A DNA stretch of 64,000 nt from a virus (taxonomy: Duplodnaviria; Heunggongvirae; Uroviricota; Caudoviricetes), in IMG/VR virus record IMGVR_UViG_2698536484_000026; one strand, written 5' to 3'. The position numbers and the translations under genes are program-made. How positions within the stretch are numbered: the stretch's first letter is position 1; every line of letters starts with the position of its first letter. Below are positions 14,815-21,801 of the stretch, piece after piece. The notes under the pieces are model-generated. The model did no database searches, was not told the DNA's origin, and saw nothing but the letters and a program-made list of their open reading frames with translations.

Positions 14815-15377
14815 ATGAGATTTACTACCTGACGTTACGTGAACGTTATTCACCAAAACCAGCGCCTAAATGCTCTGTTTGTGGCGAGGAAATGTCAATA
14901 CAGCGCATATCTGGAGCACATGTTGTTTATGCCTGTTCCGGTGAGGGTGATGACGGATATTTTAAGATAGGGCGTACTTTTGCAGACGAACATTATGAAA
15001 AATCACGCGTAACAGTAGTTGATGATAGTGATCCCGATGTGATTGCACTGCTGGACGAACTGGATAAAAGACAGCAACACATCCGACGTCTTGAGCAGGA
15101 GAACGTAGAGATGGCCCTAACGCTTGAGAAACTGCGTGTTGAGCTGGAGACCGTTAAACAGCGGGAAAAGGATCTGTTTATGGAAAATGTTCGACTTAAG
15201 TCAGGTATAGCAGGTCTGATACACCTCGGTATTCGATATGCGGATGTCGAAGTCATGAAAATAGCTGGAGATGCCCAGCTTTCTACTCCCTGTACTGACA
15301 GCATCATAAACAGTATTGCATCAGGCGTTTTCACCAAAGAGGGTCAGCATGATGAGAACAGTAGAAGTTCGCGCTGA
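14811..15377 (+). CDS. Hypothetical protein with CxxC...C zinc-ribbon-like N-terminus
   Basis: CSVCGEEMS...YACSG; coupled ORF. Confidence 0.4.
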   Translation: MNEIYYLTLRERYSPKPAPKCSVCGEEMSIQRISGAHVVYACSGEGDDGYFKIGRTFADEHYEKSRVTVVDDSDPDVIALLDELDKRQQHIRRLEQENVEMALTLEKLRVELETVKQREKDLFMENVRLKSGIAGLIHLGIRYADVEVMKIAGDAQLSTPCTDSIINSIASGVFTKEGQHDENSRSSR

Positions 15378-15537
15378 AGATGTAACCCCAGGTGATGTGG
15401 TCATAACATCTAAAGGCAAACGATGTGCGGTTAAATCTTTCTGGATGAACGGTGAAAAAGTGACTCTGTTCGGTACGGATGGTTCCGAAACTGATTATGA
15501 CTACGACGAATTGCTTGTTGTTGAGAGAGCTACCTAA
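15349..15537 (+). CDS. Hypothetical small protein
   Basis: Short ORF overlapping neighbours in operon. Confidence 0.3.
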   Translation: MMRTVEVRAEDVTPGDVVITSKGKRCAVKSFWMNGEKVTLFGTDGSETDYDYDELLVVERAT

Positions 15538-16073
15538 TGACCACCTTTACCAAAGAACAGTTAATCTCCCATGCACGCGAAAGCGTTAGTTATCTGGAAG
15601 ACTTGAAAGGACGTGTTAGTAAAGAAGGAGCGGACTGCAAAGTTGTTCATGAGATGGTTGAACGAGATCTAAAACTGGCTCGAATTGCACTGACCTCACT
15701 GGAGGCAGAGCCAGTGGCGTGGCTGGTAACACTCACAAAAAACGATCAGGAATCAGTCTCTATTATTTACCGTGACTGTGCAGAGAAAGATACATGGGTT
15801 CGGATACATGAGTCACTCGGTTCTGTCGCACATGTTGCCCCGCTTTACATGGCGCAGCCAGAACCGTCGAAGGAGGAGAAAGGACGTTCAGTCATCCAGG
15901 GTAAAGCCGATAATTCACCATTGCCGCGCTACCAGGTTATCGAATTAACAATGCTGGTTAAACAATTGGTCAGCCAACTGAAAAAAGCAAAACCTGATTG
16001 CAAATTACCGGATAGGGCAATGGATTATCTTTTGCGGAACGGACTGCTAAGTGTGGAGGATGCCTTACGATGA
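15537..16073 (+). CDS. Hypothetical protein
   Basis: Coupled ORF. Confidence 0.4.
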   Translation: MTTFTKEQLISHARESVSYLEDLKGRVSKEGADCKVVHEMVERDLKLARIALTSLEAEPVAWLVTLTKNDQESVSIIYRDCAEKDTWVRIHESLGSVAHVAPLYMAQPEPSKEEKGRSVIQGKADNSPLPRYQVIELTMLVKQLVSQLKKAKPDCKLPDRAMDYLLRNGLLSVEDALR

Positions 16074-16657
16074 TTGAAATGACAAAAGAAGAACTAACAC
16101 AGGCAACAAAGGATTACGGAAAAAAGCACATCGCACATCGTATGGCGAATGTGTTACTGGCCTTGTCTGAACAAAAGCCATCTGCGTTTGTAATGAAAGA
16201 TGATTTGGCCGATCCGGCAATTGTTTCGACTCCGGCATATTTAGATATTGAGGATGCGGAACAAAAAACGATTGGGGATATTGTCGCGCTTTATGCCGAT
16301 CCCTTTCCTGTCATCGGCGACACTACTGCTCTTGTGGACGATATTTTAAACATTCTCGCGCTTCTTGAGGCTGGCGATTGGTCAGAACATTGCACTAAAA
16401 CGGAGTTAGGCGGTCGGCTTGAAAGAGAGATTACACAACTTATTGGTGATGCCCAAAATGATTTGTCACCTGAGCATCTCCCCTGCGATGTAGTCCTTGT
16501 GCCAGGGATGAGGATACACGAAGGCGTCAGAACGAAAACATTATTAACCGCATTACAGAGAAGAGCCGAACTAAGCTCGCGGATAAAGTTGATGCCATCC
16601 AAAATATTTGATGTCGTCAAATTTACGCCATCGCAACATACTGAGAGAGATAAATGA
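16070..16657 (+). CDS. Hypothetical protein
   Basis: Coupled ORF. Confidence 0.4.
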   Translation: MIEMTKEELTQATKDYGKKHIAHRMANVLLALSEQKPSAFVMKDDLADPAIVSTPAYLDIEDAEQKTIGDIVALYADPFPVIGDTTALVDDILNILALLEAGDWSEHCTKTELGGRLEREITQLIGDAQNDLSPEHLPCDVVLVPGMRIHEGVRTKTLLTALQRRAELSSRIKLMPSKIFDVVKFTPSQHTERDK

Positions 16658-17286
16658 GCACGGTAGCGAAAGATCTCACAGAAGATATTCTCAATGAAAT
16701 TATTGCTGGTGCAAATACCTCGCTTGAGCAACTTCTTGCGTTAGCACTGAGAGCCGAACGTCGAGACAGAAATCGTTTTTATGAACGATTACCAGGGAAA
16801 CGACCAGATAGATCAGATGAAGAAGGTTGCGATATAGACTACATGGAGCCTTCAGAGATTTATCAACTTGGTAAAGATGACGGCTGGAACGCTTATCACG
16901 ATGCTGTGATGAAGTTGGATGAAAAAGTTAAACCTCTTTCTCGACCGGTAGATCACGGTTTCCGCGATAACTGCGAATGCTCTAGTTGCCAGACCACGGC
17001 CCGTATTTGTTCCGAATTGACAGATAAGTCCAGCCTAATCTACGAAGTTAATGTAGGCGGTAATACATGGGTCGAATGCACAAGAGCTGCATACGTAAGA
17101 GCAAAAGACAAGGGTGAATTAACCAGAGTTGTTGCCCATCACCCAAATAATGAGCTTAAAGATCACCAGATTAGAGAACTGGTGAATGAGTTGCGGGATA
17201 TTGCGGTTCAGTACCACGGAACGCAGCAATTGCGGGAGAAAATTGCCAGAGCAGTGAACAACTCAATTAGATCAGAAAGTATGTAG
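16654..17286 (+). CDS. Hypothetical protein (Cys-containing)
   Basis: Last gene of left + strand operon; hairpin 17302-17321 downstream. Confidence 0.4.
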   Translation: MSTVAKDLTEDILNEIIAGANTSLEQLLALALRAERRDRNRFYERLPGKRPDRSDEEGCDIDYMEPSEIYQLGKDDGWNAYHDAVMKLDEKVKPLSRPVDHGFRDNCECSSCQTTARICSELTDKSSLIYEVNVGGNTWVECTRAAYVRAKDKGELTRVVAHHPNNELKDHQIRELVNELRDIAVQYHGTQQLREKIARAVNNSIRSESM

Positions 17287-17720
17287 TCAATACAATAAAA
17301 TGGCCCCATTTGGATGGGGCCGGTAACAACTAGCATTATGGGCGCTGGTTGACGTACTCAATGATCGCTTCGATGATTGCGAACATAGGCGGCACGATTT
17401 TGAAAAGTAAGTTAAGCACTATAGGCCTCACTTAGTTTTATCGCACCTAGCTGCAAATACCTTTGAGCTTGCCTTTGCAGTTGCAATATCTGTAGTCGCC
17501 AGATACTTACGGCACGATTTCGAGTTAAGGTAAGGTTTTAGAGTCACCAAAAACCTGGACTTAAATCTTCTTTGAGAACAACGATGTTTGGTAAATGGTC
17601 ATTATTACCTAGCATGACGGCTCAACGTTTCTTGATGAATCCAGTACATTCGGTTAATCTTAGCTCAGTCGCCAGATACTTATGGCTCAGGAACAGAGGC
17701 GCAAACTCTGTTTCCTTTTA

Positions 17721-17753
17721 AAAAGCCCAGCCTAGTCAACTGGGCTTTTTTAA
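17721..17753. terminator. Bidirectional rho-independent terminator
   Basis: agcccag...ctgggct stem flanked by A-run upstream and TTTTTTA downstream. Confidence 0.5.
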
Positions 17754-18046
17754 TGTCCGTTTTTAACCAAATGTACCCACAATACCGCAACATCAGTGTC
17801 TTGCGAATTAAGATAGGATTTATAGAGACTATGTGCAAGTGCATAACTTTGTGGATAACTCGTAAAGGAAAAAGTGGTTTCCGCGGACATTAGTTCAGAC
17901 AAGGAGTCTGGGAAAGTCAATGGGAAGTAAAAATTTGTTAAAAATAACGTTTGTTGGAATTGTATATATTTATGCCTTTCAATAGTTAGCATCTTATTAA
18001 CATCTTTTTTAAGAGATAGAGTTCAAAAATATATAGCTTCAACATA

Positions 18047-18066
18047 TACTGTATGCATATACAGCA
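18047..18066 (+). promoter_or_regulatory. LexA (SOS) box
   Basis: TACTGTATGCATATACAGCA fits CTGT-N8-ACAG, 17 bp upstream of UmuD'-like start. Confidence 0.6.
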
Positions 18067-18082
18067 TTAAGAGGCGAGTATT

Positions 18083-18472
18083 ATGGGCTTCCCTTCTCCT
18101 GCGGCGGATTATGCTGAGAGCCGTATTTCTCTTGATCAGCAGATAATTAGACATCCTTCAGCGACCTACTTCATGAGGGCGGCTGATAGTCATCATCGTG
18201 AGGGAATATTGCAGGGTGCATTGCTGGTGGTCGATTCCTCACTGACTCCTGTTGATGGATCTCTTCTTGTATGTGCTCTGGATGGGGAATATCGCGTAAA
18301 AAGATACCGGAAGTATCCACGTCAGCATCTGGAGGATTTAAGAACTGGTAAGAAGGAAGCATTGCCAAAGGATGATGATGGATGCACGGGCAGCAATGCC
18401 GTGTTTGGTGTGATCACTCACATTATCAACGACGCAAGAAGTGGCGAGTTTGATGATTGTCCTGTGATGTAG
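18083..18472 (+). CDS. umuD: UmuD'-like S24 peptidase-fold protein, N-terminally truncated (P1 HumD-like); no umuC partner
   Basis: GFPSPAADY...HPSATYF...DS...VK aligns to UmuD from about residue 25 onward; in-frame stop 15 nt upstream fixes the start. Confidence 0.7.
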   Translation: MGFPSPAADYAESRISLDQQIIRHPSATYFMRAADSHHREGILQGALLVVDSSLTPVDGSLLVCALDGEYRVKRYRKYPRQHLEDLRTGKKEALPKDDDGCTGSNAVFGVITHIINDARSGEFDDCPVM

Positions 18473-18483
18473 GAGAACTGTTT

Positions 18484-18510
18484 AGGTGGTGCATTGCACC
18501 ACCTTTTTAT
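18484..18510 (+). terminator. Rho-independent terminator
   Basis: Perfect 9-bp stem aggtggtgc/gcaccacct followed by TTTTAT. Confidence 0.55.
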
Positions 18511-19610
18511 CACACTGCGCGGAATGCGATTTCGCCAGGTATTACTTCACCTTGCCAATACATTTGGGCAGCAACGCGATCTGCGAGGTCACGATAAATA
18601 GCCGTAAATTCGCTATCTGGACGACTAATAACGGTTGGTGTTCCGTTATCCAGATCTTCACGAAGAGAGATATGAAGTGGCATTTGGCCTAACAACTGCG
18701 TGTTGTATTTCTCGGCCAGTTTCTGTGCGCCACCGGTGCCAAAAATTGGCTCGTGATGACCGCAGTTACTGCAAATATGCACACTCATGTTTTCGACGAT
18801 ACCTAGTACCGGCACTTCGACTTTTTCGAACATCACAATGCCTTTCTTCGCATCGATCAGCGCGATGTCTTGCGGCGTAGTTACCACAACCGCACCAGTT
18901 ACAGGAATGTTCTGCGCCAGCGTCAATTGAATATCACCAGTGCCCGGCGGCATATCGAGAACGAGATAGTCCAGATCAGGCCACAGTGTTTCCTGCAACA
19001 TCTGCATCAACGCCTTGCTGGCCATCGGTCCACGCCACACCATTGCATTGTCGTCGGTGACCAGATAACCAATAGAGTTGGTTGCCAGGCCATGAGACAT
19101 GATAGGTGCCATGTGAGTACCGTCCGGTGAGGTTGGACGTTGGTTTTCCGCGCCCAGCATGGTTGGAATTGATGGACCATAGATATCGGCATCCAAAATA
19201 CCAACTTTCGCACCTTCAGCAGCCAAAGCCAGTGCCAAGTTTACTGCTGTGGACGATTTGCCTACACCGCCCTTGCCTGAGCTTACGGCGATAATATTCT
19301 TAACACCATTAATGCCTGGTTGGTTTTTGACGCGCTTAAGCGTGGCAATGTTGTACGACAGCTTCCAGTCAATAGCCTTTGCGCCAGTGATACGGAGCAG
19401 ATCACCACTACATTGCTCTTTCAGGTCTTCAAAAGGCTTATTCCACACGAAAGGCATGATTAGTTCGACATGCAGTGTGTCATCCATCAACGCAACATGG
19501 TGTAACGCTTTAAGCGTAGTCAGGTTGTGTTTCAGGGTTGGGTGCTGAAAATTAGCCAGCGTACCGGCTACCATTGCTCTCAGGGCATCCGGCGATTTGG
19601 ACTCGCTCAT
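18510..19610 (-). CDS. apbC: Iron-sulfur cluster carrier ATPase ApbC/Mrp
   Basis: Near full-length match to enterobacterial Mrp: AVSSGKGGVGKSSTAVNLALALA, MPPGTGD, C-terminal CSNCGH. Confidence 0.9.
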   Translation of the reverse strand: MSESKSPDALRAMVAGTLANFQHPTLKHNLTTLKALHHVALMDDTLHVELIMPFVWNKPFEDLKEQCSGDLLRITGAKAIDWKLSYNIATLKRVKNQPGINGVKNIIAVSSGKGGVGKSSTAVNLALALAAEGAKVGILDADIYGPSIPTMLGAENQRPTSPDGTHMAPIMSHGLATNSIGYLVTDDNAMVWRGPMASKALMQMLQETLWPDLDYLVLDMPPGTGDIQLTLAQNIPVTGAVVVTTPQDIALIDAKKGIVMFEKVEVPVLGIVENMSVHICSNCGHHEPIFGTGGAQKLAEKYNTQLLGQMPLHISLREDLDNGTPTVISRPDSEFTAIYRDLADRVAAQMYWQGEVIPGEIAFRAV

Positions 19611-19767
19611 CCCGTCTCCTTTATTTTAATTTGCGCAATTGTCGCCTTGTAGTGTACTCCAGCTGCGACATTTAATCATTTATGAGAAATGCTGTTATCA
19701 CATGGCAGACATAAGGCCATTTTGTTACTATCAAGCCCCTTTTCACTACAAAGAAGTAATGCCTACT

Positions 19768-21801
19768 ATGACCCAAGTCGCGAAGAAAATTCTGGTGACG
19801 TGCGCGCTGCCGTACGCTAACGGCTCAATCCACCTCGGCCATATGCTGGAGCACATCCAGGCTGATGTCTGGGTTCGTTACCAGCGAATGCGCGGCCACG
19901 AGGTTAATTTCATCTGTGCCGACGATGCCCACGGTACGCCGATCATGCTGAAAGCACAGCAACTTGGTATCACACCGGAGCAGATGATTGGCGAAATGAG
20001 TCAGGAACACCAGACTGATTTCGCAGGCTTTAACATCAGCTATGACAACTATCACTCGACGCACAGCGAAGAGAACCGTCAGTTGTCTGAGCTTATCTAT
20101 ACTCGCCTGAAAGAGAACGGTTTTATTAAAAATCGCACTATCTCTCAGTTGTACGACCCGGAAAAAGGCATGTTCCTGCCGGATCGTTTTGTGAAAGGCA
20201 CCTGCCCGAAATGTAAAGCGCCAGATCAATACGGCGATAACTGTGAAGTTTGCGGCGCGACCTACAGCCCGACTGAACTGATCGAGCCGAAATCGGTGGT
20301 TTCTGGTGCTACCCCGGTAATGCGTGATTCTGAACACTTCTTCTTTGATCTGCCCTCTTTCAGCGAAATGTTGCAGGCATGGACCCGCAGCGGTGCGTTG
20401 CAGGAGCAGGTGGCAAACAAAATGCAGGAGTGGTTTGAATCTGGTCTGCAACAGTGGGATATCTCCCGCGACGCACCTTACTTCGGTTTTGAAATTCCGA
20501 ACGCGCCGGGTAAATATTTCTACGTCTGGCTGGACGCACCGATTGGCTACATGGGTTCCTTCAAGAATCTGTGCGACAAGCGCGGCGACACTACCAGCTT
20601 CGATGAATACTGGAAGAAAGACTCCACCGCCGAGCTGTACCACTTCATCGGTAAAGATATCGTTTACTTCCACAGCCTGTTCTGGCCTGCCATGCTGGAA
20701 GGCAGCAACTTCCGCAAGCCGACCAACCTGTTTGTTCACGGCTATGTGACGGTGAACGGCGCGAAGATGTCCAAGTCTCGCGGCACCTTTATTAAAGCCA
20801 GCACCTGGTTGAATCATTTTGACGCTGACAGCCTGCGTTACTACTACACTGCGAAACTCTCTTCGCGCATTGATGATATCGATCTCAACCTGGAGGATTT
20901 CGTTCAGCGTGTGAATGCCGATATCGTGAACAAAGTGGTTAACCTGGCGTCCCGTAACGCTGGCTTTATCAATAAGCGTTTTGACGGTGTGCTGGCAAGC
21001 GAGCTGGCTGACCCGCAGTTGTACAAAACCTTCACTGATGCCGCTGAAGTGATTGGTGAAGCGTGGGAAAGCCGCGAATTTGGTAAAGCTATCCGTGAAA
21101 TCATGGCACTGGCTGACCTGGCTAACCGCTATGTCGACGAGCAGGCTCCTTGGGTAGTCGCAAAACAGGAAGGTCGCGATGCTGACCTGCAGGCGATTTG
21201 CTCAATGGGCATCAACCTGTTCCGCGTGCTGATGACTTACCTGAAACCGGTACTGCCGAAACTGACAGAACGTGCGGAAGCATTCCTGAATACGGAACTG
21301 ACCTGGGATGGCATCCAGCAACCGCTGCTGGGCCATAAAGTGAATCCGTTCAAAGCACTGTATAACCGTATCGACATGAAACAGGTGGAAGCACTGGTGG
21401 AAGCGTCTAAAGAAGAAGTGAAAGCTACTGCCGCGCCAGTTACTGGCCCGCTGGCAGACGACCCGATTCAGGAAACCATCACCTTTGACGACTTTGCCAA
21501 AGTTGACCTGCGCGTGGCACTGATCGAAAACGCAGAGTTTGTTGAAGGTTCTGACAAACTGCTGCGCCTGACGCTGGATCTCGGCGGTGAAAAACGCAAT
21601 GTCTTCTCAGGCATCCGTTCTGCTTATCCAGACCCACAGGCACTGATTGGTCGTCACACCATTATGGTGGCTAACCTGGCTCCGCGTAAGATGCGCTTCG
21701 GCATCTCCGAAGGTATGGTGATGGCTGCTGGCCCCGGCGGGAAAGATATCTTCCTGTTAAGCCCGGATGCTGGTGCTAAACCTGGCCACCAGGTTAAGTA
21801 A
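19768..21801 (+). CDS. metG: Methionine--tRNA ligase
   Basis: [26 protein letters not shown] (HIGH), KMSKS, CPKC...C zinc knuckles, C-terminal tRNA-binding domain; 677 aa from ATG 19768. Confidence 0.95.

What the first reader, a model, noticed from the sequence alone, without database searches (positions are those of the whole stretch)
17323..17720. Repeat-rich non-coding region between two terminators
A 16-bp direct repeat AGTCGCCAGATACTTA (17494 and 17667) and a GGCACGATTT-containing unit (17391 and 17511) sit in about 400 bp without ORFs, next to the junction with the host-type block. This could be an sRNA locus, a recombination site or a remnant of the junction.
Basis: seen in the sequence. 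Interest (0 to 1): 0.45.

Follow-up and report, generated by a model that had tools for sequence, protein, structure and literature searches.

The report
Unannotated small toxin–antisense RNA gene pair
The "repeat-rich non-coding gap" is most likely a compact, unannotated gene pair: a 27-residue hydrophobic peptide gene and a divergent small RNA that base-pairs with its leader, built like the tisB/istR, zorO/orzO and dinQ/agrB toxin–antitoxin loci but unrelated to them in sequence, and carried by phage-plasmids, plasmids and prophages of enterobacteria.

Summary
Both repeats are real, at the stated coordinates, and far beyond chance. The region is not an ORF-free junction remnant. It is a ~450-bp mobile module (17302-17752) that recurs in about 100 plasmids, 115 of 5426 complete E. 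coli genomes and viral/metagenome contigs, and was annotated in none of the records I inspected.

- **Minus strand:** a 27-codon hydrophobic ORF (17419..17336) with an SD, under purifying selection. It follows a long structured leader and ends at a minus-strand terminator.
- **Plus strand:** a conserved promoter places a start at 17667, giving an ~85-nt sRNA that ends at the terminator 17720-17751.
- **The 20-nt repeat:** this is the sRNA 5' end and its target in the leader. The two copies co-vary in 13 lineages. Every discordant transition gives a G·U pair only with these strand assignments.
- **The second repeat:** it marks two alternative partners of one 8-nt strand. This points to mutually exclusive helices around the ribosome site, which is an inference.

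No Pfam, NCBIfam, PHROG or above-threshold Rfam match was found. Best reading: a new family of divergent-type type I toxin–antitoxin-like modules. Toxicity, transcripts and the peptide-mRNA promoter are untested.

The parts
17302..17321 (-). Intrinsic terminator of the peptide mRNA: GGCCCCATCCAAATGGGGCC followed by ATTTTATT on the minus strand.
   Evidence: One search gives 8 pairs, 6 of them G-C, with the T-run only on the minus strand. Relatives have a G+C-rich hairpin at the same place.
17336..17419 (-). Candidate toxin ORF of 27 codons plus stop. It starts with GTG in the window and ATG in relatives. Product: (M)LNLLFKIVPPMFAIIEAIIEYVNQRP.
   Evidence: pN/pS is mostly 0.05-0.4, with two of the 28 pairs at 0.67 and 1.07. 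Variable columns by codon position are 8/3/15 and 9/5/16. GRAVY is 0.86. No Pfam, NCBIfam or PHROG family matched.
17390..17403 (-). Copy of the second repeat inside the ORF (codons F-K-I-V-P). On the mRNA, AUCGUGCC (17398-17391) is an alternative partner of the strand at 17447-17440.
   Evidence: Full-length mRNA folds pair it with 17447-17440 in 9 of 15 lineages, enclosing the SD and start codon.
17426..17429 (-). Shine-Dalgarno GAGG, 6 nt upstream of the GTG start.
   Evidence: GAGG, AAGG or GGAG sits at the same distance in nearly all lineages.
17440..17447 (-). P1 3' strand GGUGCGAU. It closes the three-way junction with 17518-17511, or alternatively pairs with the copy in the ORF.
   Evidence: (helix 1, 92% of cells paired).
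17451..17480 (-). P3 hairpin CUGCAAA-GGCAAGCUCAAAGGUA-UUUGCAG. It is invariant across lineages that are otherwise ~50-55% identical.
   Evidence: helix 3, 8 of 9 pairs never vary. This is conservation at the nucleotide level; the role is unknown.
17486..17506 (-). P2 hairpin GUAUCUG[GCGACUA]CAGAUAU. The 5' arm and loop are part of the sRNA target, and the 3' arm co-varies with them.
   Evidence: Variants seen: CACUG/CAGUG (L013), GUAUCUG/CAGGUAC (L009), UGUGUCUG/CAGAUACA (L088), GUUAAC/GUUAAC (Kpn).
17494..17513 (-). Target of the sRNA in the peptide-mRNA leader (repeat copy A). On the mRNA it reads GCCGUAAGUAUCUGGCGACU, about 75-95 nt upstream of the start codon.
   Evidence: The predicted duplex is 20 bp with one G·U, -38.5 kcal/mol.
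17510..17523 (-). Leader copy of the second repeat. It holds the P1 5' strand AUCGUGCC (17518-17511) and overlaps the sRNA target by 3-4 nt in the window. In most other lineages the whole strand lies within the sRNA complementarity.
17533..17556 (-). P0 hairpin AGGUUUU-UGGUGACUCU-AAAACCU with the invariant loop motif UUGGUGA.
   Evidence: Stem variants are AGGUUC/GAACCU, GGGUUU/AAGCCC and GGGG/CCCC.
17570..17629 (.). Variable spacer between the two divergent genes. It presumably holds the unmapped promoter and 5' end of the peptide mRNA.
   Evidence: One search shows identity of 0.17-0.34 here against 0.55-0.81 on either side. The scan found no sigma-70-like site on the minus strand.
17632..17660 (+). 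sRNA promoter TTGATG-17 nt-TAATCT. The predicted start, 7 nt downstream, is A17667.
   Evidence: Read directly. TTGAWG-17-TAAKMT is conserved in all lineages. It falls below the threshold of the scan because the -10 matches only 3 of 6.
17667..17751 (+). Candidate antitoxin sRNA of ~85 nt. It has a 5' recognition region 17667-17686 (repeat copy B), stem-loop 2 at 17689-17716, an A/U-rich linker, and a terminator at 17720-17751.
   Evidence: -32.9 kcal/mol, z = -5.15, 0 of 200 shuffles as stable. GC<->AU exchanges at two terminator pairs; 12 distinct lineages fold into the same architecture; own model scores 96 bits here and nowhere else in the window above terminator-level scores.

Best explanation

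**The two genes**
- A leftward (minus-strand) mRNA starts somewhere in 17565-17630. It carries a ~150-nt structured leader: the P0 hairpin, then a three-way junction of P1, P2 and P3. It encodes a 27-residue hydrophobic peptide (17419..17336) and stops at the terminator 17321-17302.
- A rightward ~85-nt sRNA starts at 17667 and ends at the terminator 17720-17751.

**How it most likely works (inferred)**
- The first 20 nt of the sRNA are complementary to the leader at 17513-17494, which is the loop and 5' arm of P2 plus the end of P1. That complementarity is why the DNA shows a 20-nt direct repeat.
- The sRNA 5' tail (AGUCGCC) probably docks on the P2 loop (GGCGACU). The 20-25-bp duplex that forms would then silence the mRNA about 80 nt upstream of its ribosome site.
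- Silencing could work by RNase III cleavage, by blocking a standby or leader-translation site, and/or by unzipping P1. Unzipping P1 would free its 3' strand (17447-17440) to pair with an identical 8-nt sequence inside the ORF (17398-17391) and close the SD and start codon into a hairpin.
- That last option explains the second repeat.

**Likely role (inferred)**
The peptide would be a membrane-active toxin kept silent by the sRNA, helping its carrier persist or excluding competitors.

**Shown here:** the repeats, conservation, coding selection, co-variation, and fold compatibility.
**Inferred:** transcription, toxicity, and the silencing mechanism.
For: 1. **Mobile, bounded module.** It occurs in ~100 PLSDB plasmids of Escherichia, Shigella, Citrobacter, Enterobacter, Klebsiella and Kosakonia. 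It is in 29 IMG/VR contigs, 18 metagenome contigs and 115 of 5426 complete E. coli genomes. One copy sits in a lambdoid prophage. Similarity is confined to 17330-17569 and 17630-17752.
2. **Recognition co-variation.** In 13 distinct lineages copy A and copy B change together: AGATACTTA, AGATACATT, GGTTAACAA, AGTGTTTTA, and GTCGCC, GCTGCC, GTAGCC.
3. **Strand assignment.** All discordant transitions, at 7 positions, are C(A)/T(B) or A(A)/G(B). These give G·U pairs only if copy A is read on the minus strand and copy B on the plus strand. None goes the other way.
4. **Third co-varying partner.** The P2 3' arm changes with the target.
5. **sRNA features.** A conserved promoter puts the start at the first base of the repeat. 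The fold has z = -5.15. The terminator shows compensatory changes. Twelve distinct lineages share one architecture.
6. **Duplex strength.** The window's cognate duplex is -38.5 kcal/mol, against -15.9 +/- 2.7 for shuffled 5' ends. Cognate pairs average -43.7 and non-cognate pairs -34.7.
7. **Peptide ORF.** It has an SD and is 26-28 codons in all 15 lineages. pN/pS is mostly 0.05-0.4, with third-position excess. Its hydropathy (GRAVY 0.86-1.38) is somewhat below that of TisB, ZorO, DinQ and ShoB (1.40-1.79), whose sequences I took from memory; it is similar in size. Other lineages carry two tandem paralogous peptide ORFs.
8. **Leader structure.** 94% of cells are paired, against 27-49% when partners are slid.
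9. **Alternative helix.** P1 forms in 13 of 15 leader-only folds. The helix with the ORF copy forms in 9 of 15 full-length folds, and in 11 of 15 with the target blocked.
10. **Same design in known loci.** dinQ/agrB and zorO/orzO also show a direct repeat between the toxin leader and the 5' end of a divergent sRNA. OrzO acts through 18 nt at its 5' end and needs RNase III (PMC3919570). Mutually exclusive structures control dinQ (cited in PMC8309996).
Against: - There is no transcript evidence for either RNA.
- No sigma-70-like promoter for the peptide mRNA was found, and its 5' end is unknown.
- The sRNA -10 element is weak (TAATCT).
- Toxicity is inferred only from size, hydrophobicity and layout. 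The peptides are somewhat less hydrophobic than the known toxins and have a central Pro-Pro or His-Pro.
- Blocking the target in silico did not change the predicted accessibility of the ribosome site, so the switch model has no thermodynamic support beyond the existence of both helices.
- The helix with the ORF copy is weak or absent in 4-6 of 15 lineages.
- Covariation in P1 and P2 is modest on the automatic alignment: 3 pairs with double changes, a level reached by 65 of 500 shuffles.
- Lineages are few and related, so the co-variation counts are not independent events.
- Two co-varying direct repeats could in principle also be sites for one DNA-binding protein.
Confidence: 0.68

Rival explanations
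1. It is an sRNA-regulated small membrane protein that is not a toxin. The same two transcripts and the same antisense pairing exist, but the peptide is a benign regulatory or accessory small protein, and the module is not an addiction or defence system.
For: Everything that supports the RNA pair and the ORF fits this equally well. The peptides are less hydrophobic than the classical toxins. No toxin family matches.
Against: - The layout matches the known divergent type I toxin loci point for point.
- The peptide ORF is tandemly duplicated in other lineages, a trait used to discover ZorO.
- The module sits almost exclusively on plasmids, phage-plasmids and prophages.
- The ORF follows a heavily structured leader, as toxin mRNAs do.
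Confidence: 0.17
2. The direct repeats are DNA sites (operators, iterons or partition-type sites) bound by one sequence-specific protein. The two copies co-vary because the protein's specificity drifts.
For: Two copies that change together are also expected of paired protein-binding sites. The module lies in a regulatory-looking gap next to a LexA-controlled gene.
Against: - There are only two copies, 173 bp apart, and no cognate DNA-binding gene travels with the module.
- Differences between the copies are all of the one transition type that keeps an RNA duplex with fixed strand assignment. DNA sites would not show this.
- An adjacent inverted arm co-varies to keep a hairpin.
- Copy B starts exactly at a predicted transcription start and is followed by a stem-loop and a terminator.
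Confidence: 0.06
3. The repeats are a recombination (att-like) core, a target-site duplication, or a scar of the junction between phage DNA and the host-type apbC/metG block.
For: Direct repeats flanking a ~150-bp segment, close to a mosaic boundary.
Against: - The module is found intact in unrelated backbones that lack apbC/metG.
- humD (18083..18472) lies between it and the host-type block.
- The segment between the repeats is the least conserved part, while the repeats and their flanks are conserved.
- Concerted change of both copies across lineages is not expected of a duplication scar.
- No tRNA gene was found in the window, and no integrase gene is annotated within the 5 kb on either side.
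Confidence: 0.03

Closest known systems
zorO-orzO (E. coli O157:H7 and most E. coli chromosomes)
   Same: - Small hydrophobic peptide (29 aa) with a ~180-nt structured leader.
- A divergent, non-overlapping sRNA whose 5' end carries ~18 nt of perfect complementarity to the leader, well upstream of the ribosome site.
- A variable recognition segment gives specificity between paralogous pairs.
- Tandem duplication occurs.
- Repression is RNase III-dependent and Hfq-independent (PMC3919570; locus read).
- The Enterobacter relative of our sRNA is the best sub-threshold Rfam match to OrzO-P (34.2 bits).
   Different: - There is no detectable sequence homology. The window sRNA gives no OrzO-P match, and the relative's 34.2 bits is far below the gathering score of 60.
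- My own sRNA model scores OrzO at 27 bits, no better than the reverse strand of a terminator.
- The module HMM finds only the terminator.
- The peptide has a central PP/HP motif and a polar EYVNQRP tail.
- It sits on mobile elements, not at a fixed chromosomal site.
dinQ-agrA/agrB (E. coli K-12)
   Same: - A 27-aa membrane peptide on one strand, with divergent ~84-nt sRNAs on the other.
- A long direct repeat between the toxin leader and the sRNA 5' end.
- Translation is controlled by mutually exclusive mRNA structures, and the duplex is cut by RNase III (cited in PMC8309996).
- AgrB is the best sub-threshold Rfam match of the window's sRNA (27.0 bits).
   Different: - 27.0 bits is below the AgrB gathering score of 40.
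- My sRNA model does not find AgrB, and the module HMM finds no similarity to the locus.
- There is no LexA box at the module; the only CTG-N10-CAG nearby belongs to humD at 18049.
- It has one sRNA copy, not two.
tisB-istR-1 (E. coli K-12)
   Same: A divergent sRNA pairs with the toxin leader about 100 nt upstream of a structurally hidden ribosome site (standby-site mechanism, as summarised in PMC3919570). An upstream reading frame (tisA) runs through the leader, as a 40-codon frame does here.
   Different: - No sequence similarity.
- No LexA control is evident.
- The peptide is unrelated.
hok/sok family of plasmid killer loci
   Same: - Carried by plasmids and prophages.
- Highly structured, presumably stable toxin mRNA with alternative long-range pairings.
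- An antisense RNA with a single-stranded 5' tail recognises a target hairpin.
- A possible leader ORF (mok-like).
- Likely role in post-segregational killing.
   Different: - Sok overlaps its target in cis; here the two genes do not overlap.
- Hok is ~50 aa and belongs to a different family. No HOK_GEF match and no sok match were found in the window.

Membership tests
Type I toxin-antitoxin systems (general class) | Small (<60 aa), usually hydrophobic, protein-coding toxin gene | tested here: met
   A 26-28-codon ORF with an SD in all 15 lineages, under purifying selection and hydrophobic.
Type I toxin-antitoxin systems (general class) | Antitoxin is an RNA that base-pairs with the toxin mRNA | tested here: met
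   Computational only. The duplex is 20-25 nt and co-varies in 13 lineages, with strand-specific G·U tolerance. The sRNA promoter and terminator are conserved. Transcripts have not been observed.
Type I toxin-antitoxin systems (general class) | The protein is toxic when expressed, and the RNA neutralises it | not testable with these tools
   Needs induction and rescue experiments.
zorO-orzO | sRNA matches Rfam OrzO-P (RF02083) at its gathering score of 60 bits | tested here: not met
   The window gave no match. The Enterobacter relative scored 34.2 bits. In the reciprocal search, my sRNA model scored 27 bits on OrzO, which is terminator level.
zorO-orzO | Toxin or locus homologous to zorO | tested here: not met
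   No NCBIfam or Pfam hit at E<=10. nhmmer of the module HMM against the Nissle zorO-orzO locus aligned only the terminator, at 3 bits.
dinQ-agrB | sRNA matches Rfam AgrB (RF02891) at its gathering score of 40 bits | tested here: not met
   27.0 bits in the window and 15.2 bits in the Enterobacter relative. My sRNA model does not hit agrA or agrB.
dinQ-agrB and tisB-istR | LexA box controlling the toxin promoter (SOS induction) | tested here: not met
   No CTG-N10-CAG lies between 17300 and 17800. The nearest, at 18049-18064, belongs to humD.
tisB-istR | Toxin in the TisB family; sRNA in Rfam istR | tested here: not met
   No Pfam or NCBIfam hit. No Rfam hit. No nhmmer or sRNA-model hit on the K-12 locus.
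hok/sok | Hok/Gef-family toxin (~50 aa) with a cis-overlapping Sok RNA | tested here: not met
   The peptide is 27 aa with no HOK_GEF hit. There is no sok match in the window. The two genes do not overlap.
Divergent-type type I loci (architecture shared by tisB, shoB, zorO, dinQ) | Toxin and sRNA are divergently transcribed without overlap. A short complementarity between the sRNA 5' end and the toxin leader lies upstream of the ribosome site and shows as a direct DNA repeat. | tested here: met
   Layout. The same repeat geometry was verified in the K-12 dinQ/agrB and Nissle zorO/orzO loci.

The most novel reading that the evidence does not exclude
This is a previously undescribed family of type I toxin-antitoxin modules that rides on phage-plasmids, conjugative plasmids and lambdoid prophages of Enterobacteriaceae. 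Its specificity would be set by a three-partner code: the sRNA 5' end, the target loop and arm, and the opposite arm of the target hairpin. That code has diversified into at least five mutually mismatched variants. The sRNA would silence the toxin by a strand-exchange switch. Pairing with the leader unzips helix P1, and the freed 8-nt strand then captures an identical-partner sequence inside the ORF and closes the ribosome site. Two invariant hairpin loops with SD-like runs (P0 UUGGUGA, P3 AAGG) would serve as standby or processing sites.
Probability: 0.3. Interest if true: 0.6.

Novelty: new member of a known kind. Interest (0 to 1): 0.5.

Why it matters
**Carriers.** P1/D6-like phage-plasmids of the pECOH89 type are common carriers in E. 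coli. About 2% of complete E. coli genomes hold this module. An unannotated killer/antisense pair would be a second maintenance or exclusion function beside their known addiction systems, and so bears on why these elements persist.

**For RNA biology.** The locus offers a natural set of orthogonal sRNA/target pairs, with a clear co-variation record and a candidate strand-exchange switch.

**For annotation.** A 450-bp module with two genes was blank in every record I inspected.

**Limits.** It is a new family of a well-known kind, not a new principle.

Tried and rejected
- **Known RNA genes.** A tRNA/tmRNA scan of the window found none. An Rfam scan of 15000-20000 at E<=1 gave only a terminator-driven 21-bit match.
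- **Peptide family searches.** An exact-sequence look-up found the Cyrano-type and Enterobacter-type peptides only as unnamed entries.
- **Literature.** Full-text searches for the peptide and repeat strings, and for pECOH89 or P1-like combined with type I toxins, found nothing relevant.
- **Promoter of the peptide mRNA.** The scan found none on the minus strand. By eye, no hexamer pair was conserved across lineages in the spacer. I left it unmapped.
- **Switch model.** Forcing the target unpaired did not change the predicted accessibility of the ribosome site, because the closing helix is already favoured in full-length folds. I kept the model only as an inference.
- **Leader-ORF (mok/tisA-like) reading.** The frame is open through the invariant P3 in all lineages, but its start is not conserved. 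This is unresolved.
- **Plus-strand 49-codon ORF 17572..17721.** It spans the non-conserved, indel-rich spacer and the sRNA, so I rejected it as coding.
- **Relaxed metagenome pattern.** 71 of 89 hits were unrelated sequences.
- **Homology to dinQ/agrB, zorO/orzO and tisB/istR.** Tested by nhmmer and by my own covariance model; only terminator-level scores appeared.

Full report
**Context**

The window is a P1/D6-like phage-plasmid of E. coli. The stretch 17200-17900 is 100% identical to pECOH89 (NC_023916) and a dozen other ~110-kb non-mobilizable plasmids, and 91% identical to phage Cyrano. In those records the region lies between a hypothetical gene (window 16654..17286, +) and a humD-like S24 peptidase gene (18083..18472, +). 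The host-like apbC and metG genes follow. Nothing is annotated between 17287 and 17750 in any record I inspected, including PGAP-annotated RefSeq genomes.

**The observation**

- The 16-mer occurs only at 17494 and 17667 in 64 kb. The expected count is 0.03. It extends to 20 nt with one transition.
- GGCACGATTT occurs only at 17391 and 17511. It extends to 14 nt with one mismatch.
- Both terminators exist. The left one (17302-17321) has its T-run on the minus strand only, which was the first hint of a leftward transcript.
- No tRNA gene was found, and no Rfam family reached its threshold.

**A conserved mobile module**

A low-stringency search found ~70%-identical copies of 17423-17759 in unannotated gaps of Enterobacter, Kosakonia, Citrobacter and Klebsiella plasmids with unrelated neighbours.

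A conserved 33-nt pattern then recovered more copies:
- 29 viral contigs;
- one Citrobacter contig;
- one contig labelled as a Bacillota MAG that is 91% identical to the window.

A relaxed pattern recovered 18 true copies from metagenomes.

In complete E. coli genomes, 115 of 5426 carry the module: 106 copies on plasmids and 10 on chromosomes. One chromosomal copy lies in a lambdoid prophage next to a humD fragment.

Against ten divergent lineages, identity is 0.55-0.81 across 17330-17569 and 17630-17752. It falls to 0.2-0.35 outside the module and in the spacer 17570-17629. The unit is therefore ~450 bp, bounded by the two terminators.

**The first repeat is an RNA-RNA recognition pair**

- In 13 distinct lineages the two copies change together: AGATACTTA, AGATACATT, GGTTAACAA, AGTGTTTTA, and GTCGCC, GCTGCC, GTAGCC.
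- Where the copies differ inside the duplex, the difference is always C in copy A against T in copy B, or A against G. This holds at 7 positions, with none in the opposite sense.
- Such differences give G·U pairs only if copy A is read as its complement (minus-strand RNA) and copy B as written (plus-strand RNA). With the reverse assignment they would be C·A or A·C mismatches. This fixes the strands and argues against a DNA-site explanation.
- Geometrically, a direct DNA repeat is what complementarity between two divergent transcripts looks like. I verified the same geometry in the K-12 dinQ/agrB locus and the Nissle zorO/orzO locus.

**The sRNA**

- All lineages have TTGAWG, 17 nt, then TAAKMT upstream of copy B. 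In the window this is TTGATG 17632-17637 and TAATCT 17655-17660.
- That places the start at A17667, the first base of the repeat.
- From there to the T-run at 17746-17751 is ~85 nt. The fold has a 5' tail with a weak hairpin, a 10-bp stem-loop (17689-17716), an A/U-rich linker and the terminator.
- The fold energy is -32.9 kcal/mol, z = -5.15, with no shuffle as stable.
- Twelve distinct lineages fold the same way. Two terminator pairs switch between G-C and A-U. The middle stem is kept through different sequences: GGAACAGAG/CUCUGUUUCC, GGUAACUGGAG/CUCCGGUUACC and GGUGGAAGAG/CUCUUCAUACC.
- A covariance model built from these sequences scores 96 bits at 17667-17750. Elsewhere in the window it reaches only 24 bits on the reverse strand of the terminator and 21 bits at repeat copy A, 17494-17540.

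**The peptide gene**

- On the minus strand, 6 nt after GAGG (17429-17426), a GTG (17419) opens a 27-codon frame ending at 17336. The product is (M)LNLLFKIVPPMFAIIEAIIEYVNQRP.
- Relatives have ATG at that codon.
- All 15 lineages have a 26-28-codon ORF there, of two paralogous types: ..KIVPPMFAIIEAIIEYVNQRP and ..LKLAHPVAVIIMTLLGYWKDR.
- Several lineages add a second tandem ORF, for example MVSLLLKILPPLVAIITTIIDYINKR.
- Pairwise pN/pS is mostly 0.05-0.4; two of the 28 pairs reach 0.67 and 1.07. Variable columns fall 8/3/15 and 9/5/16 by codon position. This is a coding signature.
- The peptides are hydrophobic (GRAVY 0.86-1.38). Their size matches TisB, ZorO, DinQ and ShoB, whose sequences I took from memory, though those are more hydrophobic at 1.40-1.79.
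- No Pfam, NCBIfam or PHROG family matches.

**The leader**

Single-sequence folds of the leader converge on one design in 13 of 15 lineages:
- **P0:** hairpin at 17556-17533 with the invariant loop UUGGUGA.
- **P1:** AUCGUGCC (17518-17511) pairs with GGUGCGAU (17447-17440) and closes a three-way junction.
- **P2:** 17506-17486. Its loop GGCGACU and 5' arm are the sRNA target.
- **P3:** 17480-17451, invariant.

On an alignment of 14 lineages, 94% of cells are paired, against 27-49% when partners are slid by 1-3 columns. Covariation is modest on that automatic alignment. Read in register, the P2 3' arm follows the target: CACUG/CAGUG, GUAUCUG/CAGGUAC, UGUGUCUG/CAGAUACA and GUUAAC/GUUAAC. Three partners therefore co-vary: the sRNA 5' end, the target, and the opposite arm of P2.

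The predicted cognate duplex in the window is 20 bp at -38.5 kcal/mol, against -15.9 +/- 2.7 for shuffled sRNA 5' ends. It lies 75-95 nt upstream of the start codon, as in tisB and zorO.

**The second repeat**

- Its leader copy is the P1 5' strand. Its other copy lies inside the ORF (codons K-I-V-P).
- Both copies are complementary to the same strand, 17447-17440.
- When the whole mRNA is folded, that strand pairs with the ORF copy in 9 of 15 lineages, or 11 of 15 when the sRNA target is blocked. The resulting hairpin encloses the SD and start codon.
- The sRNA target overlaps the P1 5' strand by 3-4 nt in the window and covers it entirely in most other lineages.
- I therefore propose that the two copies are alternative partners in a pair of mutually exclusive helices, and that the sRNA tips the balance toward the closed form.
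- This is an inference. Predicted ribosome-site accessibility did not change on blocking the target. The ORF-copy helix is weak in the Citrobacter 2385/RHB lineages and in L025, L032 and L013.
- RNase III cleavage of the long duplex, as shown for zorO, tisB and dinQ, is an equally likely route to silencing.

**Comparison with known systems**

The layout is that of the divergent type I loci. Membership in any of them fails:
- The window sRNA reaches 27.0 bits against Rfam AgrB (gathering score 40).
- The Enterobacter relative reaches 34.2 bits against OrzO-P (gathering score 60).
- RNAI also scores 24-28 bits, so generic stem-loop-plus-terminator features drive these matches.
- My own sRNA model gives OrzO 27 bits, the same as the reverse strand of a terminator, and does not find AgrB or IstR.
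- An HMM of the module finds nothing but a terminator in the three loci.
- There is no LexA box at the module, unlike tisB and dinQ.
- Full-text searches for the peptide and repeat strings found no paper.

I therefore file it as a new family of a known kind.

**What remains open**

- The promoter and 5' end of the peptide mRNA are unmapped.
- It is unclear why P3 and the P0 loop are invariant at the nucleotide level.
- It is unclear whether the 40-codon frame that runs through the target and stops in the SD (17550..17428) is a mok/tisA-like leader ORF.
- It is untested whether the peptide is toxic, and what the module does for its carriers.

**Verdict**

The feature is real and coherent: most likely a new, unannotated type I toxin-antitoxin-like module.

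Noticed in passing
window 18047-18066 (with 18022-18050): A canonical LexA box, TACTGTATGCATATACAGCA, overlaps a promoter-like site just upstream of the humD-like S24 peptidase gene 18083..18472. P7 annotates a LexA site at the equivalent place.
   Followed up: partly
window 17750-17992, minus strand: An 80-codon ORF matches phrog_28987 (unknown function) at E=1.5e-39 and is annotated in one plasmid record (AP024133.2). It converges on the sRNA terminator, which in the window also has a T-run on the minus strand.
   Followed up: partly
window 18510-21801: Host-like apbC/mrp (minus strand) and metG (plus strand) genes sit inside the phage-plasmid, as annotated in pECOH89 and phage Cyrano. humD lies between it and the module.
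   Followed up: no
L005 ~2870-2890; also L006, L008, L009, L024, L025, L007; window ~17788-17807: Relatives carry a palindrome (ATACTACATATAGGGG or CCACTACATGTAGTGG) 30-40 nt downstream of the sRNA terminator. The window has a different inverted repeat, CGCAACATCAGTGTCTTGCG. It may be an operator of the neighbouring gene.
   Followed up: no
L005, L006, L008, L009, L011, L024 (minus strand, downstream of the first peptide ORF): These lineages have a second, paralogous peptide ORF in tandem, for example MVSLLLKILPPLVAIITTIIDYINKR. Its SD overlaps the end of the first ORF. The window lineage has only one ORF, of the second type.
   Followed up: partly
window 17428-17550, minus strand: A TTG-started 40-codon frame runs through the sRNA target and P3 and stops inside the peptide's SD. 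In lineages with the ACATT recognition code, an AUG inside the target opens a 26-codon frame with the same end. It may be a mok/tisA-like leader ORF, but the start is not conserved.
   Followed up: partly
L134 (E. coli PK6 chromosome, NZ_CP042588.1 1465516-1473973): The module, its upstream hypothetical gene and a humD fragment lie in a lambdoid prophage (kil, ERF, anti-RecBCD, torI), interrupted by ISKox3. The block is therefore shared between lambdoid prophages and P1-like phage-plasmids.
   Followed up: partly
L005, L025, L032 spacer between the two genes: The non-conserved spacer of these lineages contains AACCGTT/AACGGTT inverted repeats and AACGGTTTAGAAC direct repeats that are absent from the window.
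   Followed up: no
L012 (JAEWTL010000044.1, labelled 'MAG: Bacillota bacterium'): A 29.6-kb contig of a Bacillota MAG carries the module at 91% identity to the window. It is probably a misbinned enterobacterial phage-plasmid fragment.
   Followed up: no
L008 4919-5058, minus strand (Klebsiella IncFIB plasmid): A sub-threshold Rfam sok match (50 bits, gathering score 59) lies next to an IS3 transposase gene on the same plasmid that carries the module.
   Followed up: no
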